Source of the DNA: Eledone cirrhosa
Taxonomy: Eukaryota
Assembly (NCBI GenBank): GCA_964016885.1
Contig: CAXHJY010000545.1
Coordinates: 1 to 64,000, forward strand
Length of the DNA stretch: 64,000 nt
Direction of reading: 5' to 3'
Part shown: piece after piece, positions 775 through 64,000 of the stretch
How positions within the stretch are numbered: position 1 is the first letter of the stretch
Layout of the letters: each line of letters begins with the position of its first letter
The notes under the pieces: generated by a model
What the model was told of the DNA's origin: nothing
Seen by the model: the letters and a program-made list of their open reading frames with translations, nothing else
The model's database searches: none
Translations under genes and position numbers: made by a program

Positions 775-775
<1 letters not shown>

Positions 776-1635: not shown

Positions 1636-4369
<2,734 letters not shown>

Positions 4370-4586
4370 TTCGTTTCTGAATTTGTTTAGCAAGATTCTT
4401 TATCTGAAATCGTGTGTTGAAACCGATATTGTTATACTTTGGGAGGGTCATGTTGCCAATAAGAAACACACGCACCAGTTGCTTTCACTTCAATTTAATT
4501 TAATATATATTTATAAATTTACAAATTTATAAATTTCTGGTTGGTTGGTTGGTTCCACAACCAGATAGTTGTTTATATATATATAT

Positions 4587-4631
4587 AGTCATAGTTCTTT
4601 CGTCACACACTCTGTGACCTCTTCAGTGACT
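4587..4631 (-). ncRNA. Minimal type I hammerhead ribozyme in family A pLTR
   Basis: AGUCA-CUGAAGA-G-GUCAC(AGAGUGU)GUGAC-GAAA-GAAC-UA-UGACU; 5-bp stems I and II. Confidence 0.85.
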
Positions 4632-4677
4632 GGGGATTTCTTTCTTCGTTTCTGTGCCTTTCCTTTCTTCTATCCTA

Positions 4678-4724
4678 CGCCATTTTGTTTGTGTGTGGGT
4701 TGCGTGCTCAGTTTGCGCATGCGC
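4678..4724 (-). promoter_or_regulatory. Candidate pLTR promoter motifs: YY1-like CGCCATTTT (4678-4686) and NRF1/Ewg-like TGCGCATGCGC (4714-4724)
   Basis: Same motifs in the same order in the otherwise dissimilar family B pLTR (1069-1077, 1155-1164). Confidence 0.55.
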
Positions 4725-4873
4725 CACATCCGGGTGTCTGTGTGTGTTTGTGTTCATTTTTCTATTTTTCTATTTATATTTGTTTGTTTATTTATTTATT
4801 TATTGTTGGTTGGTTGTTTGTTCTATGTGTGTGTGTGTTTTCATTTTGTCTTGTGTGTGTTTTCATTTTGTCC

Positions 4874-7800
4874 TTAATTGTAAGTTGTGATGTTGCTGTT
4901 CCACTCATATTTTCTATTTAATTTTGGTTTTAATTCTTTTATGCTTACTGCCTCTGTAATTTGCCTAAACATTGCGTCTTTCTTGTGTGTGGATTCTATT
5001 TTTATTTCTATGCTCTCTAATTTACCCCTGTGTTCTATCTTAGCATGTTGGTAGAGCACAGATGATTCTTTACTATCTTGGAGGTCTCGCCAGTGTTTAT
5101 TTATTCGTTCCCCTATACTACGAGCTGTCTCACCTATGTACACTATATTTTTGTTTCTACATTGTCCTTCAGTACATCTTATGCTATATACTACATTTCT
5201 AGTTTTACAGTTAATATGGGGGCTTATTTTACAGGTTATACATTTCTTATCTATACATGAGGGTCTTTGGAACGGGTATGTCTTGCTAATAAGTGTTTTT
5301 ACGGAGGTACCAGGTCTTTCTACTATCTTAATATTGAGATTATGTTTCTTTAGGGCCCTTCTAAATTTGTAGGCTAGTTCGCCTCTAGGGGTTGTATTGA
5401 TGAACATTACACTCTGGTATTTATTGCTATCATACCATGAGTTTATTCTATTGGCCTTGTTCTTAGTTCTTTCTATTCTATTCCAAAATTTGCTCCTATA
5501 CAAGGGGCAGGTCCCATTTATGTCATTATTTACCATTTTTTCCCATTTGGTTCTGGCTCCTTTATACACTCTGATTCTATCTCTCTGATTGTAGCCAGAG
5601 AACTGCATACGGTGGATGAAGTGTTGTATGTGTCTCTCTAGTTCTTCGGGGTTGCACATGCGGGACACATTTCTCATCACCCGTATCAAATCCGCAATCA
5701 GTATGTTGATTTTGGTATGGTCCGAAATGGCCGAGTTTCGGTGGATCAGATGTTTGGAAGTCATGGGTTTGGCATAATGGGAATGGAGGATTTGTTTTTG
5801 GTTGTTAATAGTATCTAACCAGAGCTCTGTGTCTAGTACAGGTAATCGATGGTTGGGGTGTCTACTTGGGTAGTCTATAGTAACTCTAATGCTCTGGTGG
5901 ATGGAGTTTGCTATTTGCTGGATGCTTTCCATTGTGTTTTTCTCTGGTTCCTGACTGTTCTTTAGTGGGGGTGTCTTAACTACGATGTTTATATCATCTA
6001 CGTAGCGGGAGTACATTATCAGGGTTAAGCTGTCTTCTAATTGTTCTTTAAGTTTTTGTTTAAGTCTACTGTCCCACCATACCATGAACAAGTTAGCTAT
6101 GTCGCCTGCAATGCTAACACCAATGGCTGCTCCTTCCTCTTGGGCATATGTTTTACCATTAAATTTGAACATATGTTCCTTAAGGGTTAATTTTATGCTG
6201 GCCCCTACCGCATGTGCAATCATTTTCTTCAGTTCATCGTGGTTTTCGGGTGTCCGTATGGCTCTGGTCCACCCGTTCCATCTATCTGTGTGGGTTTTCT
6301 TGGCCATTGAGGTAATGGTAGGTGGTCTGCCTCTTGCTGGTCTTGTAGGGCACAGGTTGCTAAGGTCATAAGTGTCTAGGTAACTATTACTATGGGTAAG
6401 CTTAAGTAGAAGTCCCAGCTCACTGGTATCAATCCCCCGGAACTCAACCTTGCTCTCGCTGATCATTTCGACGCATTTCTCCACAGCAAAATCCACGTCA
6501 ATAGATGGATACAGGGACACAACATCCATACTGCCTATTATGCAGTTTGTTAGGTCCCCAGATCGGTTACCCGCGCCGATTCTGCTGAGGAGGTCCTCCG
6601 TGCTGTCACACACATCTGGGGACATCTCAATGATGGGGCGTATGATCAGGGAGAGGAAGTAGGACAGTCTGTAGTTACTAGCAATGTTAGCCCCACAGAC
6701 TGGCCGTGTTGGTGGTCCCGCGACAGGGTCCCAGCCCGTTTTATGGTCTTTTCGAAGCCCATACAACGCCGGCACGTCATTGTTCCAGGCCTGGAAGTTG
6801 TTGGCAGTCCTTTTGTTGGGCTGCATTATATTTGTCCACATCACCATATGGGCATTGAGGGTTTTTTCTCTATCCTCATGCTCCTGTGGTGTTACCTCTC
6901 TTGTGTTAGTGATGTGGGGTTGCATTGCCTGGATGTACTTTGGCAGGCTGTCAACCGACATTCTGTCAGACTTGTCTGTTGGAAAGCATGCTATCTCTCC
7001 ATTACGCGAGCGCTGCATGAGCTTACGCAAGCCATTTGCAGATTCTTCTCCCAGTTGCTGGGCCTCTATTCTATTATGCTTCTTGCTATACTGTTCTATA
7101 ATATTTCTAAGTTCGGATTTAGCTATACTAAATTGTGCTTCTGTTTGTTCATCGACCTGCGACGGCAACTGCATGCGTTTGTTAAATGGCAAAGTTGTGG
7201 CGTGGACTCGTCGTAGGTCGAATGATTTATCGGAGGGGTTATAAAACGGAGAGTTCCAGGCTGCTGCTTGATGTGTACTAGTGCTATTGTTAGTTGTGTT
7301 GTTTCTATTTCCACCAACAGCAGCAGCCTCAGCTTCATGGTTGTTTCTATGTCTCTCATAATTACTCCTGTCTCTTTCCACTGGCTCAATGTTGTTATCT
7401 ACCCTATTTTGTGTGTCTGTGTGTTCGTCTTGGTTATTCTCTTTGTCCTTAGTCTCCCTACTCCTTTTAATCCTATTACTTTCTCTTATTTCTCTGATTT
7501 CTGTGCTACTGTCATTACTTGTTTTCTGTGTCTGTGTGTTTGTTAAGATTGTAGTGGTGGTGAGAGGCATTGAATGTGTGTGTGTTGTTGTTGTTGATGT
7601 GTGTTGTTGTTGATGTGTGTTGTTGTCTCCGTGTGTGTGTGTGTTATCGTTGTTGTGTGTGTTGTTATTGTTGTTTGTGTTTGCGTGTCTGTTGTTGTTG
7701 TATCTGGGTATGTTGCTGTTGTTGTTGTTGTTGATGTGTGTGTTGTTGTTATTGTTGTCTCCGTGTGTGTTGTTATTGTTGTTTGTGTCTGCGTGTCTGT

Positions 7801-8680
7801 TGTATCTGGGTATGTTGCTATTGTTGGTGTTGTATCTGGGTATGTTGCTATTGTTGTTGTTATTGTTGTTTGTGTCTGTGTGTCTGTTGTTGTTGGGATG
7901 TGTGTTGTATATGTGTGTGCGTATATTGTTGCTTTTGTTTTTGTTTTTGATGCTCCAGCGTAGTTTCGTAAATGATTTTTCTATTTCTGACAGACAACTA
8001 ATCATATTTACCTTCTTGAATGTCGCAAATTTGGGTGGCAGACGTAACACAGACATTTCATTATTATCTATTTTCGTGTTTCCATAAATGTTGGTATTTT
8101 CATTGTTGAACTCTTCAGATAATGAGGTGTCGGCCATGTTGATACCGTCAATTTTGTCGGGATATCTATTGGTATACTCTATAGTATCCCGATTTAGCTT
8201 TGCCTGTTTAAGCCACTTTAATTTTCTGTTAAAGTGCTTATTACATTCTTGAGTAATGTACTGTTCTTCGGGGCGTATAAGGCTTATAAATGTTAGTTTT
8301 TCTGCTGGTGTGGTGATTTTAGATATTTCATCTATTAGGTTACGCTTTAGTTTTTCTTGATTACTTAATTCTCTATAGATCTTCTTTTTTATGTTTAGAA
8401 TTAAAGTTCGTTTTAGCCTATCTGCTTGTTTTTTGGTGAGTTGTAATCTTCTAACGTCGGTATTGATGGTGTTGGTGTAGATTCTAGAAGTGGTGCACAG
8501 TTTTATGAAGTGTAGTTGTCGAGATGTTATGGTTTTTCGTAGACAACAGAACATGGTGGTTTTCAGTATCTTGTTAGCCTGGCTAAGGCTTACGATATTT
8601 CGTTTCTGAATTTGTTTAGCAAGATTCTTTATCTGAAATCGTGTGTTGAAACCGATATTGTTATACTTTGGGAGGGTCAT
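4874..8680 (-). CDS. Penelope-like RT / GIY-YIG endonuclease polyprotein (1268 aa from ATG 8680, MTLPKYNN...)
   Basis: CFPTDKS, LYGLRKDHK, RPVCGA, GSMDVVSLYPSI, GAAIG, SRYVDD, LPVLD, CxxxxCxxC linker, NVVYSIRC...[19 protein letters not shown]; Asn/His/Thr-rich linker. Confidence 0.93.
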   Translation of the reverse strand: MTLPKYNNIGFNTRFQIKNLAKQIQKRNIVSLSQANKILKTTMFCCLRKTITSRQLHFIKLCTTSRIYTNTINTDVRRLQLTKKQADRLKRTLILNIKKKIYRELSNQEKLKRNLIDEISKITTPAEKLTFISLIRPEEQYITQECNKHFNRKLKWLKQAKLNRDTIEYTNRYPDKIDGINMADTSLSEEFNNENTNIYGNTKIDNNEMSVLRLPPKFATFKKVNMISCLSEIEKSFTKLRWSIKNKNKSNNIRTHIYNTHPNNNRHTDTNNNNNNNSNIPRYNTNNSNIPRYNRHADTNNNNNTHGDNNNNNTHINNNNNSNIPRYNNNRHANTNNNNNTHNNDNTHTHGDNNTHQQQHTSTTTTHTHSMPLTTTTILTNTQTQKTSNDSSTEIREIRESNRIKRSRETKDKENNQDEHTDTQNRVDNNIEPVERDRSNYERHRNNHEAEAAAVGGNRNNTTNNSTSTHQAAAWNSPFYNPSDKSFDLRRVHATTLPFNKRMQLPSQVDEQTEAQFSIAKSELRNIIEQYSKKHNRIEAQQLGEESANGLRKLMQRSRNGEIACFPTDKSDRMSVDSLPKYIQAMQPHITNTREVTPQEHEDREKTLNAHMVMWTNIMQPNKRTANNFQAWNNDVPALYGLRKDHKTGWDPVAGPPTRPVCGANIASNYRLSYFLSLIIRPIIEMSPDVCDSTEDLLSRIGAGNRSGDLTNCIIGSMDVVSLYPSIDVDFAVEKCVEMISESKVEFRGIDTSELGLLLKLTHSNSYLDTYDLSNLCPTRPARGRPPTITSMAKKTHTDRWNGWTRAIRTPENHDELKKMIAHAVGASIKLTLKEHMFKFNGKTYAQEEGAAIGVSIAGDIANLFMVWWDSRLKQKLKEQLEDSLTLIMYSRYVDDINIVVKTPPLKNSQEPEKNTMESIQQIANSIHQSIRVTIDYPSRHPNHRLPVLDTELWLDTINNQKQILHSHYAKPMTSKHLIHRNSAISDHTKINILIADLIRVMRNVSRMCNPEELERHIQHFIHRMQFSGYNQRDRIRVYKGARTKWEKMVNNDINGTCPLYRSKFWNRIERTKNKANRINSWYDSNKYQSVMFINTTPRGELAYKFRRALKKHNLNIKIVERPGTSVKTLISKTYPFQRPSCIDKKCITCKISPHINCKTRNVVYSIRCTEGQCRNKNIVYIGETARSIGERINKHWRDLQDSKESSVLYQHAKIEHRGKLESIEIKIESTHKKDAMFRQITEAVSIKELKPKLNRKYEWNSNITTYN

Positions 8681-8813
8681 GTTGCCAATAAGAAACACAC
8701 GCACCAGTTGCTTTCACTTCAATTTAATTTAATATATATTTATAAATTTACAAATTTATAAATTTCTGGTTGGTTGGTTGGTTCCACAACCAGATAGTTG
8801 TTTATATATATAT

Positions 8814-10560: not shown

Positions 10561-10565
<5 letters not shown>
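9101..10565 (-). pseudogene. 5'-truncated family A ORF (RT C-terminal half + GIY-YIG)
   Basis: 477-aa ORF nearly identical to the C-terminus of 4874-8680. Confidence 0.9.
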
Positions 10566-12111
<1,546 letters not shown>

Positions 12112-33107: not shown

Positions 33108-33657
33108 TCGGGTCGTTGGCGACTAAACTGGCAACCCTACCAAGGTTTCTTGGTGAGGAGGGTGAGTTTGGACATCTGGCAGGACTAAAAACAAAGCCTG
33201 TCAAAGGGCAAAGGAGCTCTTAAGAGTCAATGGCCATCCAAAATCACCGGGAGAGATGATCCCTTAGCCTTTGTCAAGGCAGAATTCTAGAAGGAAAACT
33301 CTGATATAACACCTGCAACCCTGATGGTATCCAATGATGTTGACTTGTTCTTCTTTTTGGTAAATATCATCTTGTTTAAGAGAGTGGGACTGGCTTTTTG
33401 CAGTGCCTTTTTTTCACTATAAAAGCTTCACGGCACAGGCATTGCTTTATATCTGAAGATCTCTCTGCACTTCTCGTCACATGGTACCATGGACCCAGCA
33501 CTATGTGTCAGTAATTGTCACAAGTGTAGTGTTTGTACCAGAGTTTTCAAGTCCCTGGCTGGACTAAAAAGTGACACTCGTTCAGCGCATCGGTAGGGGT
33601 TCTCCTGCATGGATATAAAGTAGTGGCCGTCCTCGAAAACGAGTTGGTAGCCACCAT
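33108..33657 (+). mobile_element. Non-autonomous retroposon X, copy 3 (inverted relative to copy 2)
   Basis: Diverged reverse complement of 32132-32680. Confidence 0.8.
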
Positions 33658-35806: not shown

Positions 35807-38800
35807 TTTTCTCTTTCTCTTAATTTCGAGTATATTTTTTTGACCGGCCACCTTCCTGGTGGCAAGGTTGTAAAAGAAAAGAAATTGTCATCCCTTGAAT
35901 CGCAAGAATGTTTTGCATATTTTGAAGGTGCCAGCTATCGCAGCCATTTGTAGACTATGAATTAGGGAGCTGCGCTTTTTGTCCGCAAATCCAAGTTCGG
36001 TCATACTTTGGTCCAAGCGGGTTGGTATATAACCCGTAGCACCAATAATGATGGGTATGAAGCTAAAGGTGTATCTTGGATACTGGATTTGTAAGCTCCT
36101 CATCAATGGTCCGTAGATGTCCTCCTTCTCCTGTATTTTTCTGACAACGTTTACATCAAGTGGGCAGCTGATCTCCACAACAGAACACGTTTTCAATGTG
36201 TGGTCCCAAACTACAATATCAGGCCGGTTGTGCTTTAATTTGGTGGCAGTTTTTATTTTCAGGTTCCACCAGTATTCCTTAGTGCCATCTGTCTCAATAT
36301 ATTCTTCCTCGTTTGTTGTTAATTTTGTTTTCCGAAGTGCGTTCCAGATAGTTCTAGCTATCCCATCGTGTCTCATGGGGAGGTAGTAGCGAGATGACAT
36401 TCTTTCGCAGCTGGCAACAATGTGGCTTACATCCTCGATCTTTGTTTTACATAGCCTACATTTATTGTCAGCTGCTGGCCCTCCTCTTTTGTGCAGCAGA
36501 TATTTGGTAGGGAGTTCTTGTTCCTGTATTGCATAGAGATATCCCTCAAGGTGTGATGTCATAAACTTGTCGGAACTCCATGCCAGGCTTTTTGAGTGGT
36601 TTATCCCCTCTATGGTCTGTGTTTTACGCCTCAAGTATCCATGCACAACTTTCTCTGTAAATTGGTCAATTTTTTTTTCTTGTTTGAACATTGAATAGGA
36701 TCTTCCGATTTCTCTGGGTGAGAGATTTATATCAGGCTTTATTCCATATCTCTCCTCCAGATCAGTCGCTATTCTAATGATATTTCTTTTTTCATGCTCA
36801 TAAACCTGAGCAAGATGGTCGCCAACCTTTTTCCTCTGTTGAAGGTGTTGCTTCAGTGTTACTATCCGGGTCTCATATGTTGTTAATATTGATTTTAGAC
36901 CCCGGCCACCTTCCTTGCGTGAGAAGTATAGCCTATCCACATCACCATTGATGTTAAAGTTCCCAGTAACACTGAGAAGTTTACGAGTTCTAACATCCAT
37001 CTCACTTAGTTCTTGCAATGACCAGTTCAGTAGGCCAAATGTTGGCGTTATAATTGGCACAGCATAGGTATTGTGGGCAATGTATTTGTTGTATGCTGAC
37101 AGTTCTGATGACCATATTTTTTTTACTCTTCTGAGGTATTCAGTTCTGGTTCTCTCCTTATTTATGGGTCCATCATATCTGACATTCTCATCCTGTCCAA
37201 GATATCTGTAGTTGTCACCTGACTGCAGAGGTTGTATTGTCAGGCCGTTCATATCTAGATTTCTAGAGGAGGGCACAGCTCTTCCACGTTTTACTGCCAA
37301 ATATGCACACTTGGACTCACCAAATTTCATTTTGATGTCGGTTGAAAATTGTGTAATGAGGTCCAATTGTTTCTTGATGTCATTGATATTTGGCCCATAC
37401 AACTTCAGGTCATCAACAAAGAAAAGATGGGAGATACTTCTGGGCCCACTTCTTTGTCCACCTTGTTTCCTGAGTAGGTAAGATAGTGGATTCAGTGAGA
37501 GAACGAAGAGTAGTACTGACAAGCTACCACCCTGAAAGATGCCCTTCTGGTAATGTATCCTATCAGTCTTAACCTGCTCCTTCTCACCTCTAAGGATCAA
37601 ATTGGTGTACCAGTTCTTGGTCAGGCGTTCAACAGCAGCTACTAATGGTTGTGGGACTTTAGCTAACTGTAAAGCCTTAATAATCCACCCATGAGGTACA
37701 CTATCAAATGCTTTTTGATAGTCCAGCCACACGACAGTCATGTTTCTGCGATTCTTTGTTGTTTTTTCCTGAATCATTTTGTTAGTTAGTAGGTGATCTA
37801 TGCAACCCCACACCTCCCTCTTTCCACCAGCTTGCTCAGGTGTTATGATGTTGTTGGTAGCACAGTGATCCTGTAAGAACAGGTTAAGGCACCCAGTATA
37901 TAATTTATACATGATGTTTTGGCAGGCAATTGGGCGGTAATTTTTAGCAAGGGTGGTTTGGCTATTTTTGGGAATGAGGAGAGTAGTGGCAGTTGATAAC
38001 CATCTGGGCAGTTCTTGTGTGCCCTTAATGGTTTCTGTAAACAGCCGTATGAGATCTTGCCGATAGAAAGTGAAATTCTTCAACCAGTATCCTGTAATGA
38101 GGTCTGGGCCTGGCGATTTCCTATTCGACATTTTCTGTAGAGCTGTTTCCAGTATTGACCCATCTATGTCATATTGTTTTGTCTGGACATGTTGGCAGTA
38201 GTCCTGTTCCAGTTGTTTTAGCCAATTAGCTTGTCTGTTGAATCCGTCATCCGTTTCCCATACAGATCTCCAGTAGTTCTCAACCTGTTCTTTTGAAGGG
38301 GTGTCGTTTACAGGGATTGAGCTTTTGCCACCGAAGCTGCGATAAACTGATTTAGGATCTCTGGCAAACAATCTATTTAGCACTTGTCGTTTATGGGCTG
38401 TTGACTTATATTTTAGTCTTTCTGTTGTAGCTGTGAGTTGTTGTTTCAACTGGTGTAATTTGGAGTTCAAAGTTTTAAATTTGGTATCTCCAAATCGTCT
38501 CTCTAACTTTTTCTTTAGGTCTTCCTGGTGTCGTGTGAAGTTTCTCTCTATGTTGCATTTCATAACGACTGCGATGTGTGAGATACTTCGTCTCAGGGAC
38601 AAAATTTTGGTTTTTAAATTTCGCATCCACGCTGGTTCAGGCTTTCTGTTTGTATCTTGATTGCGTGGTTTTAGATGTGTGTTATATGATAGCAATGTGA
38701 CAGCTGAAACATATAACAAAACATTGAGCGTTTCAAATGTCGTTTCTACACCTTTAGATCGTATAGCCTTCAGATAATTGCCAGCTATTTCGTTCACCGC

Positions 38801-39175
38801 TTCCAATTCCAATTTAGTGGGTTCTTTACTGACTCTAGTGTTGTATGGTCTGTCACTCACATTAAGGCTGTGTATCTCTTGAAACATATCGTTCCATATC
38901 ACTTGTAGGGTGCCCACAAGTTTTTGGTGCTCTGTTTGTTCAGTAGAGTCATGAATTGCAGCCTCGTTGTTGATGTGGTGACAATTACTACTAGAGTCAG
39001 CTGACCTTTCTCGCTGTTCTTCAGTGGAAGTGGGATGGATTTCAGCAAAATTGTTGGTGAGCTGTTCACTGTTAGATTTAGCCGGCCATTCTCTTTGTCT
39101 GTCAGTGGAGGTGGGGTGGTTGTCTACAAGGGCTGTATTTGTAGTATCACTCGATTCCGTTAGATGTATCAATTT
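35807..39175 (-). mobile_element. R4/Dong-clade non-LTR retrotransposon, 5'-truncated
   Basis: Open RT-CCHC-RLE frame and ~80-bp 3' UTR, flanked by TATG-rich arrays. Confidence 0.92.
35888..39175 (-). CDS. RT + CCHC zinc knuckle + restriction-like endonuclease (about 1095 aa, native start missing)
   Basis: [55 protein letters not shown]...HIVASC, RHD, RPDIVV...EISCP. Confidence 0.9.
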
Positions 39176-39397
39176 ATATGTATGTATATATGTATGTATG
39201 TATATATGTATGTATGTATATATGTATATATATATATATGTATGTATATATGTATGTATATATATATGTATGTATATATATATGTATGTATATATATATG
39301 TATGTATATATATATATGTATGTATATATATATATGTATGTATATGTATGTATATATATATATGTATATATATATATGTATATATATATATGTATGT

Positions 39398-39431
<34 letters not shown>

Positions 39432-39433
39432 GT

Positions 39434-39499
<66 letters not shown>

Positions 39500-39727
39500 G
39501 TATATATATGTATGTATGTATATATATGTATGTATGTATATATATGTATGTATGTATATATATATATATATGTATATATATGTATGTATGTATATATATA
39601 TATATATACATGTATGTATGTATATATATACATATATACATATATGTATATATATACATATATATATGTATGTATGTATGTATATATACATGTATGTATG
39701 TATATATATATATATATGTATGTATAC

Positions 39728-42700
39728 ATATTGTTATACTTTAGGAGGGTCATGTTGCCAATAAGAAACACACGCACCAGTTGCTTTCACTTCAATTTAT
39801 TATATATTTATAAATTTATAAATTGACAAATCTACAAACTTATAAATTTCTGGTTGGTTGGTTGGTTCCACAACCAGATAGTTGTTTATATATAGTCATA
39901 GTCCTTTCGTCACACACTCTGTGACCTCTTCAGTGACTGGGGATTCCTTTCTTTGTTTCTGTGCCTTTCCTTTCTTCTGTCCTACGCCATTTTGTTTCTG
40001 TGTGTGCTCAGTTTGCGCATGCGCCACATCCGGGTGTCTGTGTGTGTTTGTGTTCATTTATCTATCTGTTTATTTATTTACATGTTGTTGGTTGGTTGTT
40101 TGTTCTATGTGTGTGTGTGTGTTTTCATTTTGTCCTTAATTGTAAGTTATGATGTTGCTGTTCCACTCATATTTTCTATTTAATTTTGGTTGTAATTCTT
40201 TTATGCTTACTGCCTCTGTAATTTGCCTAAACATTGCATCTTTTCTGTGTGTGGATTCTATTTTTATTTCTATGTTCTCTAATTTACCCTTGTGTTCTAT
40301 CTTAGCATGTTGGTAGAGTACAGATGATTCTTTATTATCTTGAAGGTCTCGCCAGTGTTCATTTATCCGTTCCCCTATGCTACGAGCTGTCTCACCTATG
40401 TACACTATATTTTTGTTTCTACATTGTCCTTCAGTACATCTTATGCTATACACCACATTTCTAGTTTTACAGTTAATATGGGGGCTTATTTTACAGGTTA
40501 TACATTTCTTATCTATACATGAGGGTCTTTGAAACGGGTATATCTTGCTAATAAGTGTTTTTACGGAGGTACCTGGTCTTTCTACTATCTTAATATTGAG
40601 TTTATGATTATTTAGGGCCCTTCTAAATTTGTAGGCTAGTTCGCCTCTAGGGGTTGTATTGATGAACATTACACTCTGGTATTTATTGCTATCATACCAT
40701 GAGTTTATTCTATTGGCCTTATTCCTAGTTCTTTCTATTCTATTCCAAAATTTGCTCCTATACAGGGGGCAGGTCCCATTTGTGTCATTATTTACCATTT
40801 TTTCCCATTTGGTTCTGGCTCCTCTATACACACTGATTCTATCTCTCTGATTGTAGCCAGTGAACTGCATACGGTGGATGAAGTGTTGTACATGTCTCTC
40901 TAGTTCTTCGGGGTTGCACATGCGGGACACATTTCTCATCACGCGTACCAAATCCGCAATCAGTATGTTGATTTTGGTATGGTCCGAAATGGCCGAGTTT
41001 CGGTGGATCAGATGTTTAGAAGTCATGGGTTTGGCGTAATGGGAATGGAGGATTTGTTTTTGGTTGTTAATGGTATCTAACCAGAGCTTTTTATCTAGTA
41101 CAGGTAATCGATGGTTGGGGTGTCTACTTGGGTAGTCTATAGTAACTCTAATGCTCTGGTGGATGGAGTTTGCTATTTGCTGGATGCTTTCCATTGTGTT
41201 TTTTTCTAGTTCCTGACTGTTCTTTAGTGGGGGTGTCTTAACTACGATGTTTATATCATCTACGTAGCGGGTGTACATTATCAGGGTTAAGCTGTCTTCT
41301 AATTGTTCATTAAGTTTTTGTTTAAGTCTACTGTCCCACCATACCATGAATAAGTTAGCTATGTCGCCTGCAATGCTAACACCAATGGCTGCTCCTTCCT
41401 CTTGGGCATATGTTTTCCTTAAGGGTTAATTTTATGCTGGCCCCTACCGCATGTGCAATCATTTTCTTCAGTTCATCGTGATTTTCGGGTGTCCGTATGG
41501 CTCTGGTCCACCCGTTCCATCTATCTGTGTGGGTTTTCTTGGCCATTGAGCTAATGGTAGGTGGTCTGCCTCTTGTTGGTCTTGTAGGGCACAGGTTGCT
41601 AAGGTCATAAGTGTCTAGGTAACTATTACTATGGGTAAGCTTAATTAGAAGTCCCAGCTCACTGGTATCAATCCCACGGAACTCAACCTTGTTCTCGCTG
41701 ATCATTTCTACGCATTTCTCCACAGCAAAATCCACGTCAATAGATGGATACAGGGACACAACATCCATACTGCCTATTATGCAGTTTGTTAGGTCCCCAG
41801 ATCGGTTACCCTCGCCGATTCTGCTGAGGAGGTCCTCCGTGCTGTCACATACATCTGGGGACATCTCAATGATGGGGCGTATGATCAGGGAGAGGAAGTA
41901 GGACAGTCTGTAGTTACTAGCAATGTTAGCTCCACAGACTGGCCGTGTTGGTGGTCCCGCGACAGGCTCACAGCCCGTTTTATGGTCTTTTCGAAGCCCA
42001 TACAACGCCGGCACGTCATTGTTCCAGGCCTGGAAGTTGTTGGCAGTCCTTTTGTTGGGCTGCATTATATTCGTCCACATCACCATATGGGCATTGAGGG
42101 CTTTTTCTCTATCCTCATGCTCCTGTGGTGTTACCTCTCTTGTGTTAGTGATGTGGGGTTGCATTGCCTGGATGTAGTTTGGCAGGCTGTCAACCGACAT
42201 TCTGCCAGACTTGTCTGTTGGAAAGCATGCTATCTCTCCATTACGTGAGCGCTGCATGAGCTTACGCAAGCCATTTGCAGATTTTTCTCCCAGTTGCTGG
42301 GCCTCTATTCTATTATGCTTCTTGCTATACTGTTCTATAATATTTCTAAGTTCGGATCTAGCTATACTAAATTGTACTTCTGTTTGTTCATCGACCTGCG
42401 ACGGCAACTGCGTGCGTTTGTTAAATGGTAAAGTCGTGGCGTGGACTCGTCGCAGGTCGAATGATTTATCGGAGGGATTATAAAACGGAGAGTTCCAGGC
42501 TGCTGCTTTATGTGTACTAGTGCTATTGTTATTGTTAGTTGTGTTGTTTCTATTTCTATTTCCACCAACAGCCTCATGGTTGTTTCTATGTCTCTCATAA
42601 TTACTCCTGTCTCTTTCCACTGGCTCAATGTTGTTATCTACCTTATTTTGTGTGTCTGTGTGTTCGTCTTGGTTATTCTCTTTGTCCTTAGTCTCCCATC

Positions 42701-53404: not shown

Positions 53405-53817
53405 ACCCGGGAGAGATGACCCCTTAGCCTTTGTCAAGGCAGAATTCTAGGAGAAGGAAAACTCTGATATAACACCTGCAACCCTGATGGTATCCAATGA
53501 TGTTGACTTGTTCTTCTTTTTGGTAAATATCATCTTGGTTAAGAGAGTGGGACTGGCTTTGTGCAGTGCCTTTGCTCACTATAAAAGCTTCACGGCACAG
53601 GCATTGCTTTATATCTGGAGATCTCTCTGCATTTGTCGTCACATGGTACCATGGGCCCAGCACTATGTGTCAATAATTGTCACAAGTGTAGTGTTTGTAC
53701 CAGAGCTTTCAAGTCGCTGGCTGGACTAAAAAATCACACTCGTTCAGCGCATCAGTAGGGGTTCTCCTACATGGATATAAAGTAGTGGCCGTACTCGAAA
53801 ACGAGTTGGCAGCCACC

Positions 53818-53819
<2 letters not shown>
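53405..53819 (+). mobile_element. Non-autonomous retroposon X, copy 4
   Basis: Reverse complement of 29238-29652; ends GGCAGCCACCAT(AT)n. Confidence 0.8.
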
Positions 53820-53850
<31 letters not shown>

Positions 53851-53934
53851 TATGTGTATATATATATATGTGTATATATATATATATATGTATGTGTATA
53901 TATATATATGTGTATATATATATATATATGTGTG

Positions 53935-53968
<34 letters not shown>

Positions 53969-54055
53969 TATATACATATATGTATATGTATATATATATA
54001 TATATGTATATATATATGTATATGTGTATATATATATATATATATGTGTGTATAT

Positions 54056-54087
<32 letters not shown>

Positions 54088-54290
54088 GTGTATATATATA
54101 CATATATGTATATGTATATATATATATATATGTATATATATACATATATGTATATCTATATATATATGTATATATATACATATATGTATATCTATATATA
54201 TATATGTATATATATACATATATGTATATATATATATGTATATATATACATATATGTATATATATATATATGTATATATATACATATATG

Positions 54291-54321
<31 letters not shown>

Positions 54322-54412
54322 ATATACATATATGTATATATATGTATATATGTATATATATACATATATGTATATATATGTATATATGTATATATATATA
54401 TATACATATATG

Positions 54413-54457
<45 letters not shown>

Positions 54458-54968
54458 GTATATATATACATATATACATATATATGTATATATACATATA
54501 TATGTATATATATATGTATATATACATATATATGTATATATATACATATATACATATATATGTATATATACATATATATGTATATATATGTATATATACA
54601 TATATATGTATATATATGTATATATACATATATATGTATATATATGTATATATACATATATATGTATATATATACATATATACATATATATGTATATATA
54701 CATATATATGTATATATATATGTATATATACATATATATGTATATATATACATATATGTATATGTATATACATATATATATATATATACATATATGTATA
54801 TGTATATACATATATATATATATATACATATATGTATATATATGTATATATATACATATATGTATATATATATATATATACATATATGTATATATATATA
54901 TATACATATATGTATATATATATATATATATACATATATGTATATATATATATATATATACATATATG

Positions 54969-55035
<67 letters not shown>

Positions 55036-55072
55036 GTATATATATGTGTATATATATATATATGTATATATG

Positions 55073-55103
<31 letters not shown>

Positions 55104-55204
55104 GTATATATATATGTATGTATATATATATGTATGTATATATATATGTATGTATATATATATGTATGTATATATATATGTATGTATGTATATATATATG
55201 TATG

Positions 55205-55235
<31 letters not shown>

Positions 55236-55256
55236 GTATGTATATATATATGTATG

Positions 55257-55303
<47 letters not shown>

Positions 55304-55563
55304 GTATGTATATATATATGTATGTATATATATATGTATGTATATATATATGTATGTATATATATATATGTATGTATATATATATGTATGTATATTATAT
55401 ATATATGTATGTATATATATATGTATGTATGTATATATATATGTATGTATATATATATGTATGTATATATATATGTATGTATATATATTATATATGTATG
55501 TATATATATATGTATGTATATATATATGTATGTATATATATATATATGTATGTATATATATAT

Positions 55564-55601
<38 letters not shown>

Positions 55602-56074
55602 TATATATGTATGTATATATATATATATATGTATGTATATATATATGTATGTATATATATATATATGTATGTATTATATATATATATATGTATGTATATA
55701 TATATATATATGTATGTATATATATATATGTATGTATATATATATGTATGTATATATATATATATGTATGTATTATATATATATATATGTATGTATATAT
55801 ATATATATATGTATGTATATATATATGTATGTATTATATATATGTATGTATATATATATATATGTATGTATATATATATATATGTATGTATATATATATG
55901 TATGTATATATATATATATGTATGTATATATATATATATGTATGTATATATATATGTATGTATGTATATATATATATATGTATGTATATATATATGTATG
56001 TATCATTATGTATGTATGTATATATGTATATATGTATGTATGTATATATATATATATGTATGTATATATGTATG

Positions 56075-56106
<32 letters not shown>

Positions 56107-56626
56107 TATATGTATGTATATATATATATGTATGTATATATATATATATGTATGTATATATATATATATGTATGTATATATATATATATGTATGTATATA
56201 TATATATATGTATGTATATATATATATATGTATGTATATATATATGTATGTATATATATATATATGTATGTATATATATATATATATGTATGTATATTAT
56301 ATATATGTATGTATATATTATGTATGTATATATATATATGTATGTATTATATATATGTATGTATATATATATATATGTATGTATATATATATATATGTAT
56401 GTATATATATATATATGTATGTATATATATATATATGTATGTATATATATATATATGTATGTATATATATATATATGTATGTATATATATATATGTATGT
56501 ATATATATATATATATATATGTATGTATATATATATGTATGTATGTATATATATATATATGTATGTATATATATATGTATATATTATATATATATGTATA
56601 TATATGTATATATATATATATATATG

Positions 56627-56680
<54 letters not shown>

Positions 56681-56685
56681 GTATA

Positions 56686-56776
<91 letters not shown>
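53820..56776. repeat. Degenerate (AT)n/(TATG)n array
   Basis: Direct reading. Confidence 0.97.
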
Positions 56777-56778
<2 letters not shown>

Positions 56779-59700
56779 GTAAGTATGCATGTATACGTAC
56801 ATACATATATGTATACAGACGTACAGTAGCATGCACATATATATATATATATACATATATATATACATATGCATACAGGTACACATACATATATGCACGT
56901 ATCAGTTTAGCGGCGCTAACGTCGCTTTGTTCGTTTGTAAACAAACTGAACAGCCTGAATTTATGCCATACGGTGTTAAGGCAACCACGTCACCTTTTTG
57001 TTCAACACTGACACAGGAACGATGTACTAGTTTCAAGCTTGTTAGTTATCATCAGCACCGTTTACCCATCTGCCAGATAGTTGAACGTTCGAAAGTATAT
57101 ACTTTCCTTATGAAAATTAACGGCTGAGCAGCCTAATTTGCATATTGAGTGAGTTAAATCGGTCAGGCATACCGAAAACGATAAATTGAAACAAAATGAA
57201 AACGAAATTTCATTTCTCACTCTTAGTATGGCACTTACTTAAATGTAAGTATGCATGTATACGTACATACATATATGTATACAGACGTACAGTAGCATGC
57301 ACATATATATATATATATACATATATATATACATATGCATACAGGTACACATACATATATGCACGTATCAGTTTAGCGGCGCTAACGTCGCTTTGTTCGT
57401 TTGTAAACAAACTGAACAGCCTGAATTTATGCCATACGGTGTTAAGGCAACCACGTCACCTTTTTGTTCAACACTGACACAGGAACGATGTACTAGTTTC
57501 AAGCTTGTTAGTTATCATCAGCACCGTTTACCCATCTGCCAGATAGTTGAACGTTCGAAAGTATATACTTTCCTTATGAAAATTAACGGCTGAGCAGCCT
57601 AATTTGCATATTGAGTGAGTTAAATCGGTCAGGCATACCGAAAACGATAAATTGAAACAAAATGAAAACGAAATTTCATTTCTCACTCTTAGTATGGCAC
57701 TTACTTAAATGTAAGTATGCATGTATACGTACATACATATATGTATACAGACGTACAGTAGCATGCACATATATATATATATATACATATATATATACAT
57801 ATGCATACAGGTACACATACATATATGCACGTATCAGTTTAGCGGCGCTAACGTCGCTTTGTTCGTTTGTAAACAAACTGAACAGCCTGAATTTATGCCA
57901 TACGGTGTTAAGGCAACCACGTCACCTTTTTGTTCAACACTGACACAGGAACGATGTACTAGTTTCAAGCTTGTTAGTTATCATCAGCACCGTTTACCCA
58001 TCTGCCAGATAGTTGAACGTTCGAAAGTATATACTTTCCTTATGAAAATTAACGGCTGAGCAGCCTAATTTGCATATTGAGTGAGTTAAATCGGTCAGGC
58101 ATACCGAAAACGATAAATTGAAACAAAATGAAAACGAAATTTCATTTCTCACTCTTAGTATGGCACTTACTTAAATGTAAGTATGCATGTATACGTACAT
58201 ACATATATGTATACAGACGTACAGTAGCATGCACATATATATATATATATACATATATATATACATATGCATACAGGTACACATACATATATGCACGTAT
58301 CAGTTTAGCGGCGCTAACGTCGCTTTGTTCGTTTGTAAACAAACTGAACAGCCTGAATTTATGCCATACGGTGTTAAGGCAACCACGTCACCTTTTTGTT
58401 CAACACTGACACAGGAACGATGTACTAGTTTCAAGCTTGTTAGTTATCATCAGCACCGTTTACCCATCTGCCAGATAGTTGAACGTTCGAAAGTATATAC
58501 TTTCCTTATGAAAATTAACGGCTGAGCAGCCTAATTTGCATATTGAGTGAGTTAAATCGGTCAGGCATACCGAAAACGATAAATTGAAACAAAATGAAAA
58601 CGAAATTTCATTTCTCACTCTTAGTATGGCACTTACTTAAATGTAAGTATGCATGTATACGTACATACATATATGTATACAGACGTACAGTAGCATGCAC
58701 ATATATATATATATATACATATATATATACATATGCATACAGGTACACATACATATATGCACGTATCAGTTTAGCGGCGCTAACGTCGCTTTGTTCGTTT
58801 GTAAACAAACTGAACAGCCTGAATTTATGCCATACGGTGTTAAGGCAACCACGTCACCTTTTTGTTCAACACTGACACAGGAACGATGTACTAGTTTCAA
58901 GCTTGTTAGTTATCATCAGCACCGTTTACCCATCTGCCAGATAGTTGAACGTTCGAAAGTATATACTTTCCTTATGAAAATTAACGGCTGAGCAGCCTAA
59001 TTTGCATATTGAGTGAGTTAAATCGGTCAGGCATACCGAAAACGATAAATTGAAACAAAATGAAAACGAAATTTCATTTCTCACTCTTAGTATGGCACTT
59101 ACTTAAATGTAAGTATGCATGTATACGTACATACATATATGTATACAGACGTACAGTAGCATGCACATATATATATATATATACATATATATATACATAT
59201 GCATACAGGTACACATACATATATGCACGTATCAGTTTAGCGGCGCTAACGTCGCTTTGTTCGTTTGTAAACAAACTGAACAGCCTGAATTTATGCCATA
59301 CGGTGTTAAGGCAACCACGTCACCTTTTTGTTCAACACTGACACAGGAACGATGTACTAGTTTCAAGCTTGTTAGTTATCATCAGCACCGTTTACCCATC
59401 TGCCAGATAGTTGAACGTTCGAAAGTATATACTTTCCTTATGAAAATTAACGGCTGAGCAGCCTAATTTGCATATTGAGTGAGTTAAATCGGTCAGGCAT
59501 ACCGAAAACGATAAATTGAAACAAAATGAAAACGAAATTTCATTTCTCACTCTTAGTATGGCACTTACTTAAATGTAAGTATGCATGTATACGTACATAC
59601 ATATATGTATACAGACGTACAGTAGCATGCACATATATATATATATATACATATATATATACATATGCATACAGGTACACATACATATATGCACGTATCA

Positions 59701-62700
59701 GTTTAGCGGCGCTAACGTCGCTTTGTTCGTTTGTAAACAAACTGAACAGCCTGAATTTATGCCATACGGTGTTAAGGCAACCACGTCACCTTTTTGTTCA
59801 ACACTGACACAGGAACGATGTACTAGTTTCAAGCTTGTTAGTTATCATCAGCACCGTTTACCCATCTGCCAGATAGTTGAACGTTCGAAAGTATATACTT
59901 TCCTTATGAAAATTAACGGCTGAGCAGCCTAATTTGCATATTGAGTGAGTTAAATCGGTCAGGCATACCGAAAACGATAAATTGAAACAAAATGAAAACG
60001 AAATTTCATTTCTCACTCTTAGTATGGCACTTACTTAAATGTAAGTATGCATGTATACGTACATACATATATGTATACAGACGTACAGTAGCATGCACAT
60101 ATATATATATATATACATATATATATACATATGCATACAGGTACACATACATATATGCACGTATCAGTTTAGCGGCGCTAACGTCGCTTTGTTCGTTTGT
60201 AAACAAACTGAACAGCCTGAATTTATGCCATACGGTGTTAAGGCAACCACGTCACCTTTTTGTTCAACACTGACACAGGAACGATGTACTAGTTTCAAGC
60301 TTGTTAGTTATCATCAGCACCGTTTACCCATCTGCCAGATAGTTGAACGTTCGAAAGTATATACTTTCCTTATGAAAATTAACGGCTGAGCAGCCTAATT
60401 TGCATATTGAGTGAGTTAAATCGGTCAGGCATACCGAAAACGATAAATTGAAACAAAATGAAAACGAAATTTCATTTCTCACTCTTAGTATGGCACTTAC
60501 TTAAATGTAAGTATGCATGTATACGTACATACATATATGTATACAGACGTACAGTAGCATGCACATATATATATATATATACATATATATATACATATGC
60601 ATACAGGTACACATACATATATGCACGTATCAGTTTAGCGGCGCTAACGTCGCTTTGTTCGTTTGTAAACAAACTGAACAGCCTGAATTTATGCCATACG
60701 GTGTTAAGGCAACCACGTCACCTTTTTGTTCAACACTGACACAGGAACGATGTACTAGTTTCAAGCTTGTTAGTTATCATCAGCACCGTTTACCCATCTG
60801 CCAGATAGTTGAACGTTCGAAAGTATATACTTTCCTTATGAAAATTAACGGCTGAGCAGCCTAATTTGCATATTGAGTGAGTTAAATCGGTCAGGCATAC
60901 CGAAAACGATAAATTGAAACAAAATGAAAACGAAATTTCATTTCTCACTCTTAGTATGGCACTTACTTAAATGTAAGTATGCATGTATACGTACATACAT
61001 ATATGTATACAGACGTACAGTAGCATGCACATATATATATATATATACATATATATATACATATGCATACAGGTACACATACATATATGCACGTATCAGT
61101 TTAGCGGCGCTAACGTCGCTTTGTTCGTTTGTAAACAAACTGAACAGCCTGAATTTATGCCATACGGTGTTAAGGCAACCACGTCACCTTTTTGTTCAAC
61201 ACTGACACAGGAACGATGTACTAGTTTCAAGCTTGTTAGTTATCATCAGCACCGTTTACCCATCTGCCAGATAGTTGAACGTTCGAAAGTATATACTTTC
61301 CTTATGAAAATTAACGGCTGAGCAGCCTAATTTGCATATTGAGTGAGTTAAATCGGTCAGGCATACCGAAAACGATAAATTGAAACAAAATGAAAACGAA
61401 ATTTCATTTCTCACTCTTAGTATGGCACTTACTTAAATGTAAGTATGCATGTATACGTACATACATATATGTATACAGACGTACAGTAGCATGCACATAT
61501 ATATATATATATACATATATATATACATATGCATACAGGTACACATACATATATGCACGTATCAGTTTAGCGGCGCTAACGTCGCTTTGTTCGTTTGTAA
61601 ACAAACTGAACAGCCTGAATTTATGCCATACGGTGTTAAGGCAACCACGTCACCTTTTTGTTCAACACTGACACAGGAACGATGTACTAGTTTCAAGCTT
61701 GTTAGTTATCATCAGCACCGTTTACCCATCTGCCAGATAGTTGAACGTTCGAAAGTATATACTTTCCTTATGAAAATTAACGGCTGAGCAGCCTAATTTG
61801 CATATTGAGTGAGTTAAATCGGTCAGGCATACCGAAAACGATAAATTGAAACAAAATGAAAACGAAATTTCATTTCTCACTCTTAGTATGGCACTTACTT
61901 AAATGTAAGTATGCATGTATACGTACATACATATATGTATACAGACGTACAGTAGCATGCACATATATATATATATATACATATATATATACATATGCAT
62001 ACAGGTACACATACATATATGCACGTATCAGTTTAGCGGCGCTAACGTCGCTTTGTTCGTTTGTAAACAAACTGAACAGCCTGAATTTATGCCATACGGT
62101 GTTAAGGCAACCACGTCACCTTTTTGTTCAACACTGACACAGGAACGATGTACTAGTTTCAAGCTTGTTAGTTATCATCAGCACCGTTTACCCATCTGCC
62201 AGATAGTTGAACGTTCGAAAGTATATACTTTCCTTATGAAAATTAACGGCTGAGCAGCCTAATTTGCATATTGAGTGAGTTAAATCGGTCAGGCATACCG
62301 AAAACGATAAATTGAAACAAAATGAAAACGAAATTTCATTTCTCACTCTTAGTATGGCACTTACTTAAATGTAAGTATGCATGTATACGTACATACATAT
62401 ATGTATACAGACGTACAGTAGCATGCACATATATATATATATATACATATATATATACATATGCATACAGGTACACATACATATATGCACGTATCAGTTT
62501 AGCGGCGCTAACGTCGCTTTGTTCGTTTGTAAACAAACTGAACAGCCTGAATTTATGCCATACGGTGTTAAGGCAACCACGTCACCTTTTTGTTCAACAC
62601 TGACACAGGAACGATGTACTAGTTTCAAGCTTGTTAGTTATCATCAGCACCGTTTACCCATCTGCCAGATAGTTGAACGTTCGAAAGTATATACTTTCCT

Positions 62701-62736
62701 TATGAAAATTAACGGCTGAGCAGCCTAATTTGCATA
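56777..62736 (-). repeat. 466-bp tandem array, about 12.8 apparently identical units, one hammerhead per unit (retrozyme-like satellite)
   Basis: Identical ORF translations recur every 466 bp; hammerhead at 57018-57062 + 466k, k=0-12. Confidence 0.96.
57018..57062 (-). ncRNA. Minimal type I hammerhead ribozyme, first of 13 minus-strand copies
   Basis: AACGGUG-CUGAUGA-UAACUAACAAGCUU-GAAA-CUAG-UA-CAUCGUU; 7-bp stem I, palindromic stem III ACUAGU, weak stem II. Confidence 0.8.
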
Positions 62737-64000
62737 CTTACATTTAAGTAAGTGCCATACTAAGAGTGAGAAATGAAATTTCGTTTTCATTTTGTTTCAA
62801 TTTATCGTTTTCGGTATGCCTGACCGATTTAACTCACTCAATATGCAAATTAGGCTGCTCAGCCGTTAATTTTCATAAGGAAAGTATATACTTTCGAACG
62901 TTCAACTATCTGGCAGATGGGTAAACGGTGCTGATGATAACTAACAAGCTTGAAACTAGTACATCGTTCCTGTGTCAGTGTTGAACAAAAAGGTGACGTG
63001 GTTGCCTTAACACCGTATGGCATAAATTCAGGCTGTTCAGTTTGTTTACAAACGAACAAAGCGACGTTAGCGCCGCTAAACTGATACGTGCATATATGTA
63101 TGTGTACCTGTATGCATATGTATATATATATGTATATATATATATATATGTGCATGCTACTGTACGTCTGTATACATATATGTATGTACGTATACATGCA
63201 TACTTACATTTAAGTAAGTGCCATACTAAGAGTGAGAAATGAAATTTCGTTTTCATTTTGTTTCAATTTATCGTTTTCGGTATGCCTGACCGATTTAACT
63301 CACTCAATATGCAAATTAGGCTGCTCAGCCGTTAATTTTCATAAGGAAAGTATATACTTTCGAACGTTCAACTATCTGGCAGATGGGTAAACGGTGCTGA
63401 TGATAACTAACAAGCTTGAAACTAGTACATCGTTCCTGTGTCAGTGTTGAACAAAAAGGTGACGTGGTTGCCTTAACACCGTATGGCATAAATTCAGGCT
63501 GTTCAGTTTGTTTACAAACGAACAAAGCGACGTTAGCGCCGCTAAACTGATACGTGCATATATGTATGTGTACCTGTATGCATATGTATATATATATGTA
63601 TATATATATATATATGTGCATGCTACTGTACGTCTGTATACATATATGTATGTACGTATACATGCATACTTACATTTAAGTAAGTGCCATACTAAGAGTG
63701 AGAAATGAAATTTCGTTTTCATTTTGTTTCAATTTATCGTTTTCGGTATGCCTGACCGATTTAACTCACTCAATATGCAAATTAGGCTGCTCAGCCGTTA
63801 ATTTTCATAAGGAAAGTATATACTTTCGAACGTTCAACTATCTGGCAGATGGGTAAACGGTGCTGATGATAACTAACAAGCTTGAAACTAGTACATCGTT
63901 CCTGTGTCAGTGTTGAACAAAAAGGTGACGTGGTTGCCTTAACACCGTATGGCATAAATTCAGGCTGTTCAGTTTGTTTACAAACGAACAAAGCGACGTT
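62731..64000 (+). repeat. Inverted arm of the 466-bp array (2.7+ units, runs off window); hammerheads at 62924-62968, 63390-63434, 63856-63900
   Basis: Reverse-complement units; TGCATA microhomology at 62731-62736. Confidence 0.95.

What the first reader, a model, noticed from the sequence alone, without database searches (positions are those of the whole stretch)
56777..64000. Homogeneous 466-bp hammerhead-ribozyme array that looks like a single concatemeric retrozyme insertion into (AT)n
Seen: every unit carries AACGGUG-CUGAUGA...GAAA-CUAG-UA-CAUCGUU, with an intact core and a palindromic stem III. Units look identical. In ribozyme sense the 3' end joins the microsatellite through a short overlap (unit CATACTTACAT|TTAAG becomes CATACTTACAT|ATATAT), like the Penelope-like copies here, and the other end is inverted. 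Known: minimal hammerheads with palindromic stem III act as dimers; hammerhead satellites and non-LTR retrozymes (newt satellite 2, schistosome Sm-alpha, cricket pDo500) yield monomer or circular RNAs and are thought to use PLE enzymes. Inference: a 466-nt self-cleaving, possibly circular RNA was reverse transcribed round and round about 13 times by a microsatellite-targeting PLE RT. I do not recall this being described in cephalopods.
Basis: partly seen in the sequence, partly recalled or inferred. Interest (0 to 1): 0.9.

Follow-up and report, generated by a model that had tools for sequence, protein, structure and literature searches.

The report
Two-armed retrozyme with Penelope insertion footprint
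This is a 10.7-kb block of 23 near-identical 466-base repeats, each carrying a predicted self-cutting (hammerhead) RNA motif and belonging to a family of over 10,000 copies; it sits in the genome with the same two-ended footprint as the resident Penelope-like retrotransposon, and was likely written in one event by such an enzyme copying round a circular RNA, which would be rare genomic support for a proposed but untested step of retrozyme spread.

Summary
The array runs past the window to contig base 67,454: a 12.8-unit minus arm and a 10.1-unit plus arm joined 5'-to-5', both outer ends being ribozyme-sense 3' ends fused to (AT)n. The unit is a non-coding type I hammerhead repeat with at least 10,600 exact ribozyme copies in dispersed short arrays, i.e. 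a non-LTR retrozyme-type family. Its insertions end at two fixed sites 62 nt apart, one per arm (25 of 27 head-to-head end pairs); the genome's young Penelope-like element does the same (sites 60 nt apart, 40 of 46). The two arms of an insertion share rare variants (9 of 34, against 9 of 1,122 cross pairs). All 23 units here carry a stem-II-weakening variant seen in 52 of 10,615 ribozyme copies; no other run of more than two exists in the assembly, so one unit was amplified, most simply by reverse transcription round a circle. Against: 7 of 36 arrays are mosaics; cleavage, RNA and circles are untested; the unit has no detectable homology to the Penelope element. Known kind, new member, with useful mechanistic evidence.

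The parts
56777..62736 (-). Arm 1: 12.8 identical 466-bp units, 13 hammerheads; outer (3') end at unit position 466 ('short' start site A) joined to (AT)n; inner 5' break at unit position 99
62731..64000 (+). Arm 2 (window part): continues to contig base 67,454, 10.1 units, 10 hammerheads; outer (3') end at unit position 62 ('tailed' start site B) joined to (AT)n; inner 5' break at unit position 454
62731..62736 (.). 5'-to-5' inversion junction, 6-nt overlap TGCATA shared by both arms
62744..62805 (+). Unit positions 1-62: the stretch between the two preferred 3' ends, equivalent to the PLE 'tail'
62924..62968 (+). Type I hammerhead motif (one of 23): stem I 7 bp, core CUGAUGA/GAAA, stem II, palindromic ACUAGU stem III, predicted cut after 62961
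   Evidence: activity untested
62940..62940 (+). Unit position 197: A here, G in the family; breaks a G-C pair of stem II; present in all 23 units
63084..63200 (+). AT-rich long hairpin of the unit (length-variable between family members; source of the spurious miRNA-family matches)
53818..56776 (.). (AT)n/(TATG)n target tract on the left; a similar tract of at least 2.6 kb follows the right end
4368..8713 (-). Candidate partner: open 1,279-codon RT + GIY-YIG Penelope-like frame (4874-8713) with its own hammerhead and two 3' ends 60 nt apart; this copy ends at the tailed site (4368)

Best explanation
The array is one very young two-armed insertion of a non-coding hammerhead repeat family (non-LTR retrozyme type) that shows the end structure of Penelope-like elements, and it was likely made when a Penelope-like RT/GIY-YIG enzyme cut an (AT)n tract and copied round a likely circular 466-nt RNA from two start sites. 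Steps: (1, inferred) an array is transcribed and hammerheads, probably as dimers through the palindromic stem III, release a monomer that a host ligase closes; (2, footprint shown, enzyme inferred) both strands of (AT)n are nicked and each 3' end primes with an AT match, one at unit position 466 and the other at 62; (3, inferred) each RT goes round the same template, here about 13 and 10 times, through the ribozyme cut site; (4, shown as structure) the two cDNAs are joined 5'-to-5' in element sense over a 6-nt overlap. The stem-II mismatch may have spared this template from re-cleavage (speculative).
For: Dispersed family, not one satellite: 9,005 and 10,563 exact motif matches on many contigs, controls 2 and 0. 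Two fixed 3' ends fused to ATAT: 1,669 A-ends and 2,153 B-ends. Among the listed ends on C1 up to 168 Mb, 25 of 27 head-to-head neighbours pair A with B (p 3e-6 against independent choice). The resident PLE has 14,142 and 12,373 such ends 60 nt apart and pairs them in 40 of 46; 104 of 104 scored copies are 99-100% identical in protein, nearly all without stops in the stretch. 60 of 64 outer flanks are AT-alternating. Two RT start sites delimiting the tail, cutting of both strands and a predicted dimer are reported for an Anolis PLE (PMC11167929). One template for both arms: rare variants shared in 9 of 34 two-armed insertions against 9 of 1,122 cross pairs; in 5 of 25 resolved A/B insertions neither arm can be a fold-back copy of the other. 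One unit amplified: A197 is in 52 of 10,615 motif copies, 23 of them here, and elsewhere never more than 2 in a row; 10 of 39 sampled insertions of 3 or more units have a rare variant fixed in all covering units. Arrays age star-like: 170 single-unit changes against 24 shared by a subset, in 36 arrays. No 5' break lies at the cut site (0 of 108 within 215-223), so cleaved linear RNA is not the usual template. The circular monomer folds 8 SD below shuffles (3.3 SD without the AT hairpin); no ATG-started frame over 48 codons on the ribozyme strand.
Against: No cleavage, RNA or circle was observed. A197 costs about 6.7 kcal/mol in the modelled ribozyme fold and abolishes the isolated stem II hairpin, and the ribozyme that releases a monomer's 3' end is its own, so excision of this variant may be poor. 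The family closes stem II with U.U (10 of 12 rows unpaired there) where G10.1-C11.1 is called highly conserved (PMC4209133); 8 of 9 Xenopus retrozyme dimers tested did not cleave. 7 of 36 arrays have blocks or periodic variants (period 5 in L018, 3 in L044, 2 in L050 and L076; also 6+3 in L047), which need multimeric or switched templates or later duplication; L024 has arms of two subfamilies. The Anolis work found uncleaved RNA to be the main substrate. The unit shows no significant similarity to the PLE pLTR (best sense-strand matches E 0.02 or worse), so the partner is identified by footprint only. 20 of 25 resolved insertions do not exclude fold-back copying.
Confidence: 0.6

Rival explanations
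1. Same PLE insertion, but the template was an uncleaved linear multimer transcript of a long source array (favoured by a weakened ribozyme); no circle is involved.
For: Mosaic and periodic arrays; no breaks at the cut site; uncleaved RNA was the main substrate for the Anolis PLE; stem II weakened. The C4 copy L015 matches this array for 1,208 of 1,212 bases and could be such a daughter of it.
Against: It needs a source with at least 13 consecutive A197 units; the assembly has none but this array, and linear copying can only shorten arrays, leaving unexplained how a single mutated unit becomes fixed in all units of many insertions.
Confidence: 0.2
2. The RT jumped repeatedly between, or back onto, short linear RNAs (monomers or dimers) and so built the concatemer without a covalent circle.
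For: Blocks of different haplotypes in one arm (L047, L018) show that template changes can occur.
Against: 22 joints here are seamless at every position including the cut site; with over 10,000 family copies, jumps between molecules would bring in G197 units, and none is present.
Confidence: 0.08
3. A short two-armed PLE-type insertion was later expanded at the DNA level (unequal exchange, slippage, arm-to-arm conversion), i.e. a young local satellite.
For: Adjacent-unit sharing in L052 and L076 shows local duplication happens; the flanking microsatellites are kilobases long; this is the model favoured for array growth in the 2026 preprint.
Against: Two oppositely oriented arms would both have to expand with no substitution in 23 units; aged arrays are mostly star-like (e.g. 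L043 10 single, 0 shared; L019 9, 0; L060 8, 0); length does not rise with age (rho -0.12, p 0.47, n 36).
Confidence: 0.07
4. The length or homogeneity of this array on a 98-kb unplaced contig is an assembly or read artefact (fold-back read, collapsed or polished repeat).
For: Unplaced, microsatellite-rich contig; I could not see the junction in public contigs.
Against: The arms differ in end site, break point and flank, unlike a fold-back read; the same design occurs at dozens of chromosomal loci; the rare A197 is retained where polishing would give G; non-G share at this site in run X1 is about 0.66% against 0.49% in the assembly with the array and 0.27% without (rough, and X1 may be the source sample).
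Confidence: 0.05

Closest known systems
Metazoan non-LTR retrozymes (Cervera and de la Pena 2020, PMC7229834; newt satellite 2, mussel, coral, axolotl)
   Same: Non-coding, low-GC tandem units with one type I hammerhead each, thousands of copies, dimers to multimers, weak palindromic helix III, co-occurring PLEs; circle-templated tandem cDNA is their proposed route.
   Different: Unit (466 nt) is at or above the reported 150-450 bp; U.U closes stem II; the two-armed head-to-head design, paired start sites and (AT)n targeting were not in the passages I read; expression and circles are shown there and not here.
Vertebrate retrozymes as pLTR derivatives of PLEs (Li, Clavereau, Pollet 2026, bioRxiv 10.64898/2026.07.22.740005)
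   Same: Concludes retrozymes are non-autonomous PLE partners.
   Different: Its evidence is co-occurrence and pLTR homology, and it leans on local amplification for arrays; here no pLTR homology was found with the one PLE family tested, and the evidence is the insertion footprint and variant sharing. No mollusc among its 35 genomes (31 vertebrates, 3 insects, 1 anthozoan).
EN+ Penelope-like elements (Craig 2021 PMC8557442; Arkhipova 2013 PMC3846280; Frangieh 2024 PMC11167929)
   Same: Tandem plus inverted 5'-truncated copies, a tail at only one end, (TA)n bias, two internal RT start sites.
   Different: The unit encodes nothing; tail is 62 nt rather than 30-40; arms are up to 13-15 units; the one-site-per-arm rule is quantified here.
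Non-autonomous Chlamys elements such as MRC1 (PMC8557442)
   Same: PLE-mobilised, multicopy head-to-tail insertions.
   Different: Those resemble their partner at the 3' end and the clade lacks canonical hammerheads.

Membership tests
non-LTR retrozyme | Type I hammerhead in every tandem unit | tested here: met
   23 of 23 units; core nearly invariant in 264-276 sampled units; covariation 84% paired vs 67% shuffled, 10 of 14 pairs with double changes in 12 selected motifs; no Rfam hit at threshold
non-LTR retrozyme | Short, low-GC, non-coding unit without LTR, PBS or tRNA head | tested here: met
   466 nt, AT-rich; longest ATG frame 48 codons on the ribozyme strand, longer frames on the other strand lie in the AT hairpin region by inspection; no tRNA; PBS and PPT not searched
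non-LTR retrozyme | Many dispersed loci, monomers to multimers | tested here: met
non-LTR retrozyme | Self-cleavage (monomer or dimer) | not testable with these tools
   only modelled; A197 weakens stem II
non-LTR retrozyme | Accumulates as unit-length linear and circular RNA | not testable with these tools
   no run on record as RNA was available
non-LTR retrozyme | Target-site duplication longer than 4 bp when present | tested here: inconclusive
   2 of 32 informative matches vs 5 of 992 cross pairs; (AT)n flanks hide TSDs and the script's end handling was crude
PLE-mobilised non-autonomous element | Two 3' ends delimiting a tail, tail at one end only | tested here: met
PLE-mobilised non-autonomous element | Inverted 5'-truncated partner copy; (TA)n targets | tested here: met
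PLE-mobilised non-autonomous element | Intact, young RT + GIY-YIG element with the same footprint in the genome | tested here: met
   RVT_1 in 9 and GIY-YIG in 5 of 41 homologues, below Pfam cut-offs and none for P0001 itself; clade not determined
pLTR-derived retrozyme (Li 2026 sense) | Sequence homology between the unit and a PLE pLTR | tested here: not met
   blastn against the window's main PLE pLTR and window bases 1-54,000 gave chance-level matches only; other PLE families of the genome not tested
PLE minimal hammerhead (Cervera 2014) | Long helix II (7-8 bp), short helix I, no helix III | tested here: not met
   7-bp stem I, 4-bp stem II, A-U plus C-G helix III with palindromic loop

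The most novel reading that the evidence does not exclude
These arrays are direct genomic records of rolling-circle target-primed reverse transcription: a dimeric Penelope-like enzyme loads one hammerhead circRNA, primes at two sites 62 nt apart with the two nicked strands, and both subunits run round the same circle; the RNA is a sequence-unrelated parasite that mimics the PLE's start-site geometry, periodic mosaics record dimer to pentamer circles, and ribozyme-weakening variants give longer insertions.
Probability: 0.3. Interest if true: 0.78.

Novelty: new member of a known kind. Interest (0 to 1): 0.56.

Why it matters
That animal retrozyme circles are reverse transcribed into tandem cDNA by Penelope-like elements is proposed in print but, in the papers I read, supported only by co-occurrence and homology; how PLEs make their tandem and inverted insertions is called undefined (PMC8557442). 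This genome offers an intact young PLE, at least three hammerhead repeat families and thousands of insertions whose ends, junctions and private variants can be counted, and it names an exact in vitro test: one protein, one 466-nt RNA, two predicted start sites, linear against circular template.

Tried and rejected
Rfam: no family at gathering score; the miRNA matches at E-value level come from the AT hairpin and were set aside. tRNA-derived SINE: none. Sequencing runs: no RNA holder listed; runs of other organisms listed there were not confirmed: X4 and X24 gave nothing laid (the tool says neither is a proof of absence), so no claim of horizontal transfer is made. X8 (kind not on record) holds the unit, only as G197; not usable for expression. 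The junction at 62731-62736 could not be verified in short contigs. Search for a coding partner contiguous with the unit: tblastn of P0001 on loci up to L084 gave PLE pieces in 11 loci and none was seen continuous with a unit in the maps; an older 422-bp relative is also a plain tandem. No shared fold of the tails of unit and PLE was evident. TSD test inconclusive. Junction overlaps: 21 of 54 candidate junctions overlap by 2 nt or more, 14 by 0-1, 19 have gaps; the list includes mis-scored rows (the window's own among them), so it is descriptive only. Fold-back self-priming (PMC3846280) is excluded for 5 of 25 insertions only; 6 of 31 unresolved. P0001 alone matched no Pfam family or solved structure significantly. 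Earlier scan findings: none returned. Sampling: L015-L028 were best hits to this haplotype, L029-L048 20 stretches chosen from the first 100 motif hits on C1 (multi-hit clusters favoured), L049-L067 chosen for having both end types near each other (so not used for the pairing statistic), L069-L084 chosen for A197; three chimeric clusters were dropped from the 39 before the 36-array count.

Full report
Observation. TRF finds 12.8 copies of a 466-bp unit at 56777-62736 with 100% matches and a second array from 62731. The 12 full minus-arm units are identical; the arms overlap by 6 nt at 62731-62736. The window is bases 1-64,000 of a 97,934-base contig in a 3.0-Gb genome. Reading on, the plus arm has 10 ribozymes and ends at 67,454: 10,678 bp in all, with two small indels and no substitution. 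Both outer ends are 3' ends in ribozyme sense and run into kilobases of (AT)n. With unit position 1 at window 62744, the left arm ends at 466 and the right at 62.

The ribozyme. The motif has the type I layout: stem I AACGGUG/CAUCGUU, core CUGAUGA and GAAA, helix III ACUAGU (palindromic), cut predicted after GUA at 62961. Rfam does not call it. In 12 motifs picked by hand from the regular-expression list (this family, older relatives, a 310-bp family, two others) 83.9% of cells pair against 66.9% in shuffles and 10 of 14 pairs change on both sides (relatedness inflates this). The family has AGCU/AGCU as stem II with U.U at its base; this array has A for G at position 197, which raises the modelled fold from -8.1 to -1.4 kcal/mol. 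A helix III of this kind is described as needing a dimer (PMC4209133, passages). Activity is untested.

The family. A 15-mer of the motif occurs 9,005 times, control 2; the 29-mer with G197 10,563 times and with A197 52 times. In 70 further stretches (L015-L084; how they were chosen is under Tried and rejected) copies are short arrays, mostly two arms joined 5'-to-5', flanked by (AT)n, with several subfamilies at about 85-100% identity. It is not one satellite locus.

PLE footprint. Insertions end at two places: 1,669 exact A-ends (position 466) and 2,153 B-ends (position 62) fused to ATAT, controls 1 and 0. Of 27 head-to-head neighbouring ends within 12 kb among the 194 listed for C1, 25 pair A with B. 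The window holds an open 1,279-codon frame with RT and GIY-YIG motifs (homologues score RVT_1 in 9 and GIY-YIG in 5 of 41; profile hits RT structures; best named hit Octopus vulgaris 67%). It is young and abundant, has two ends 60 nt apart in 14,142 and 12,373 copies, and pairs them in 40 of 46. In print, a tail at one end and inverted 5'-truncated copies are PLE hallmarks (PMC8557442, passages; PMC3846280, passages), and an Anolis PLE cuts both strands, starts at two internal sites that delimit the tail and is predicted to be a dimer (PMC11167929, parts 1-2 of 4). The unit has no significant similarity to this PLE's pLTR, so the partner is inferred from footprint only.

One template. Rare variants are shared across arms in 9 of 34 two-armed insertions and 9 of 1,122 cross pairs; L024 is a counter-example with arms from two subfamilies. 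Fold-back copying cannot give 5 of 25 resolved insertions and is not excluded for the other 20; arm lengths correlate (rho 0.50, p 0.011, biased sample).

Circle or line. A197 is in all 23 units; the other 29 copies are two pairs (C4, C2) and singletons. The C4 pair matches this array over 1,208 of 1,212 bases and has exactly two ribozymes, enough to release one monomer; it may be source or daughter. No long A197 source exists in the assembly. Ten of 39 insertions with 3 or more units have a rare variant fixed in all covering units; in 36 arrays single-unit changes outnumber subset-shared ones 170 to 24 and length does not rise with age. None of 108 inner break points lies within 215-223, around the cut site. 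These fit arrays born long from one unit. Against a plain monomer circle, 7 of the 36 arrays show blocks or periods of 2, 3 or 5, the A197 ribozyme may cut poorly, and uncleaved RNA was the main template in vitro for the Anolis element. I put a circular template for this array at about 0.6 and PLE-type insertion at about 0.9.

Reads. No run on record as RNA was listed. In contigs of run X1 the non-G share at position 197 is about 0.66%, nearer the assembly's 0.49% than the 0.27% expected without the array; this is rough and not independent; the junction was not seen.

What is known. Non-LTR retrozymes, their circles and the PLE hypothesis are in PMC7229834 (passages and Discussion), PMC7761336 (passages) and bioRxiv 10.64898/2026.07.22.740005 (parts 1-3 of 5). 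Searches for a cephalopod case or for two-armed, tail-paired retrozyme insertions returned none; the library lacks most subscription papers and no supplements were read. Newt, schistosome and cricket examples are cited there; I did not read the originals.

Verdict. Real; a new member of a known kind, membership met on sequence and genomic features and untested on RNA features. Its value is the footprint evidence for how PLEs prime and how retrozyme arrays are born. Interest 0.56.

Noticed in passing
L078:5188-7978, L031:6134-8501, L017:6505-7974, L076:2713-3713; C1:36482096-36490619: A second hammerhead repeat family, 310-bp unit, 8,664 exact motif matches, same U.U-closed stem II with compensatory changes, same two-armed design, ends at unit positions 171 and 197 (26-nt tail), arms up to 27 units.
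   Followed up: partly
L085-L096 (e.g. C3:214128758-214133330): An older relative of the 466 unit, period 422, about 75% identical, with the same two end sites.
   Followed up: partly
G000 C10:43895533-43907384, C1526:113081-128593; window 4368-12112: The autonomous PLE itself forms full-length tandems (period about 4.28 kb) in the same head-to-head design, so it too may use multimeric or circular templates. A second PLE family about 70% identical lies at window 775-1633 and 12112-14927.
   Followed up: no
window 4368, 8597, 8657, 62805; L078: Start sites of the PLE, the 466 and the 310 units all read AT followed by CG or TT in the template (by inspection); small numbers, may be chance.
   Followed up: no
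L020, L022, L026, L032, L039, L040 flanks: The (AT)n tracts on both sides of an insertion repeat the same locus-specific interruption many times, as if the target tract was amplified during or after insertion.
   Followed up: no
window 7575-7950 (minus): An asparagine/histidine/threonine-rich simple-repeat insert keeps the PLE frame open; N-rich inserts are described for rotifer Penelope elements.
   Followed up: no
window 35888-39733 (minus); 29240-29681, 32134-32680, 33108-33655, 53407-53817: An open 1,281-codon LINE-type frame (RVT_1, zf-RVT) and four 5'-truncated pieces of one repeat, each inserted in (AT)n.
   Followed up: no
loci L015-L084: Many further hammerhead-like motif families appear in the flanks; the genome is rich in them.
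   Followed up: no
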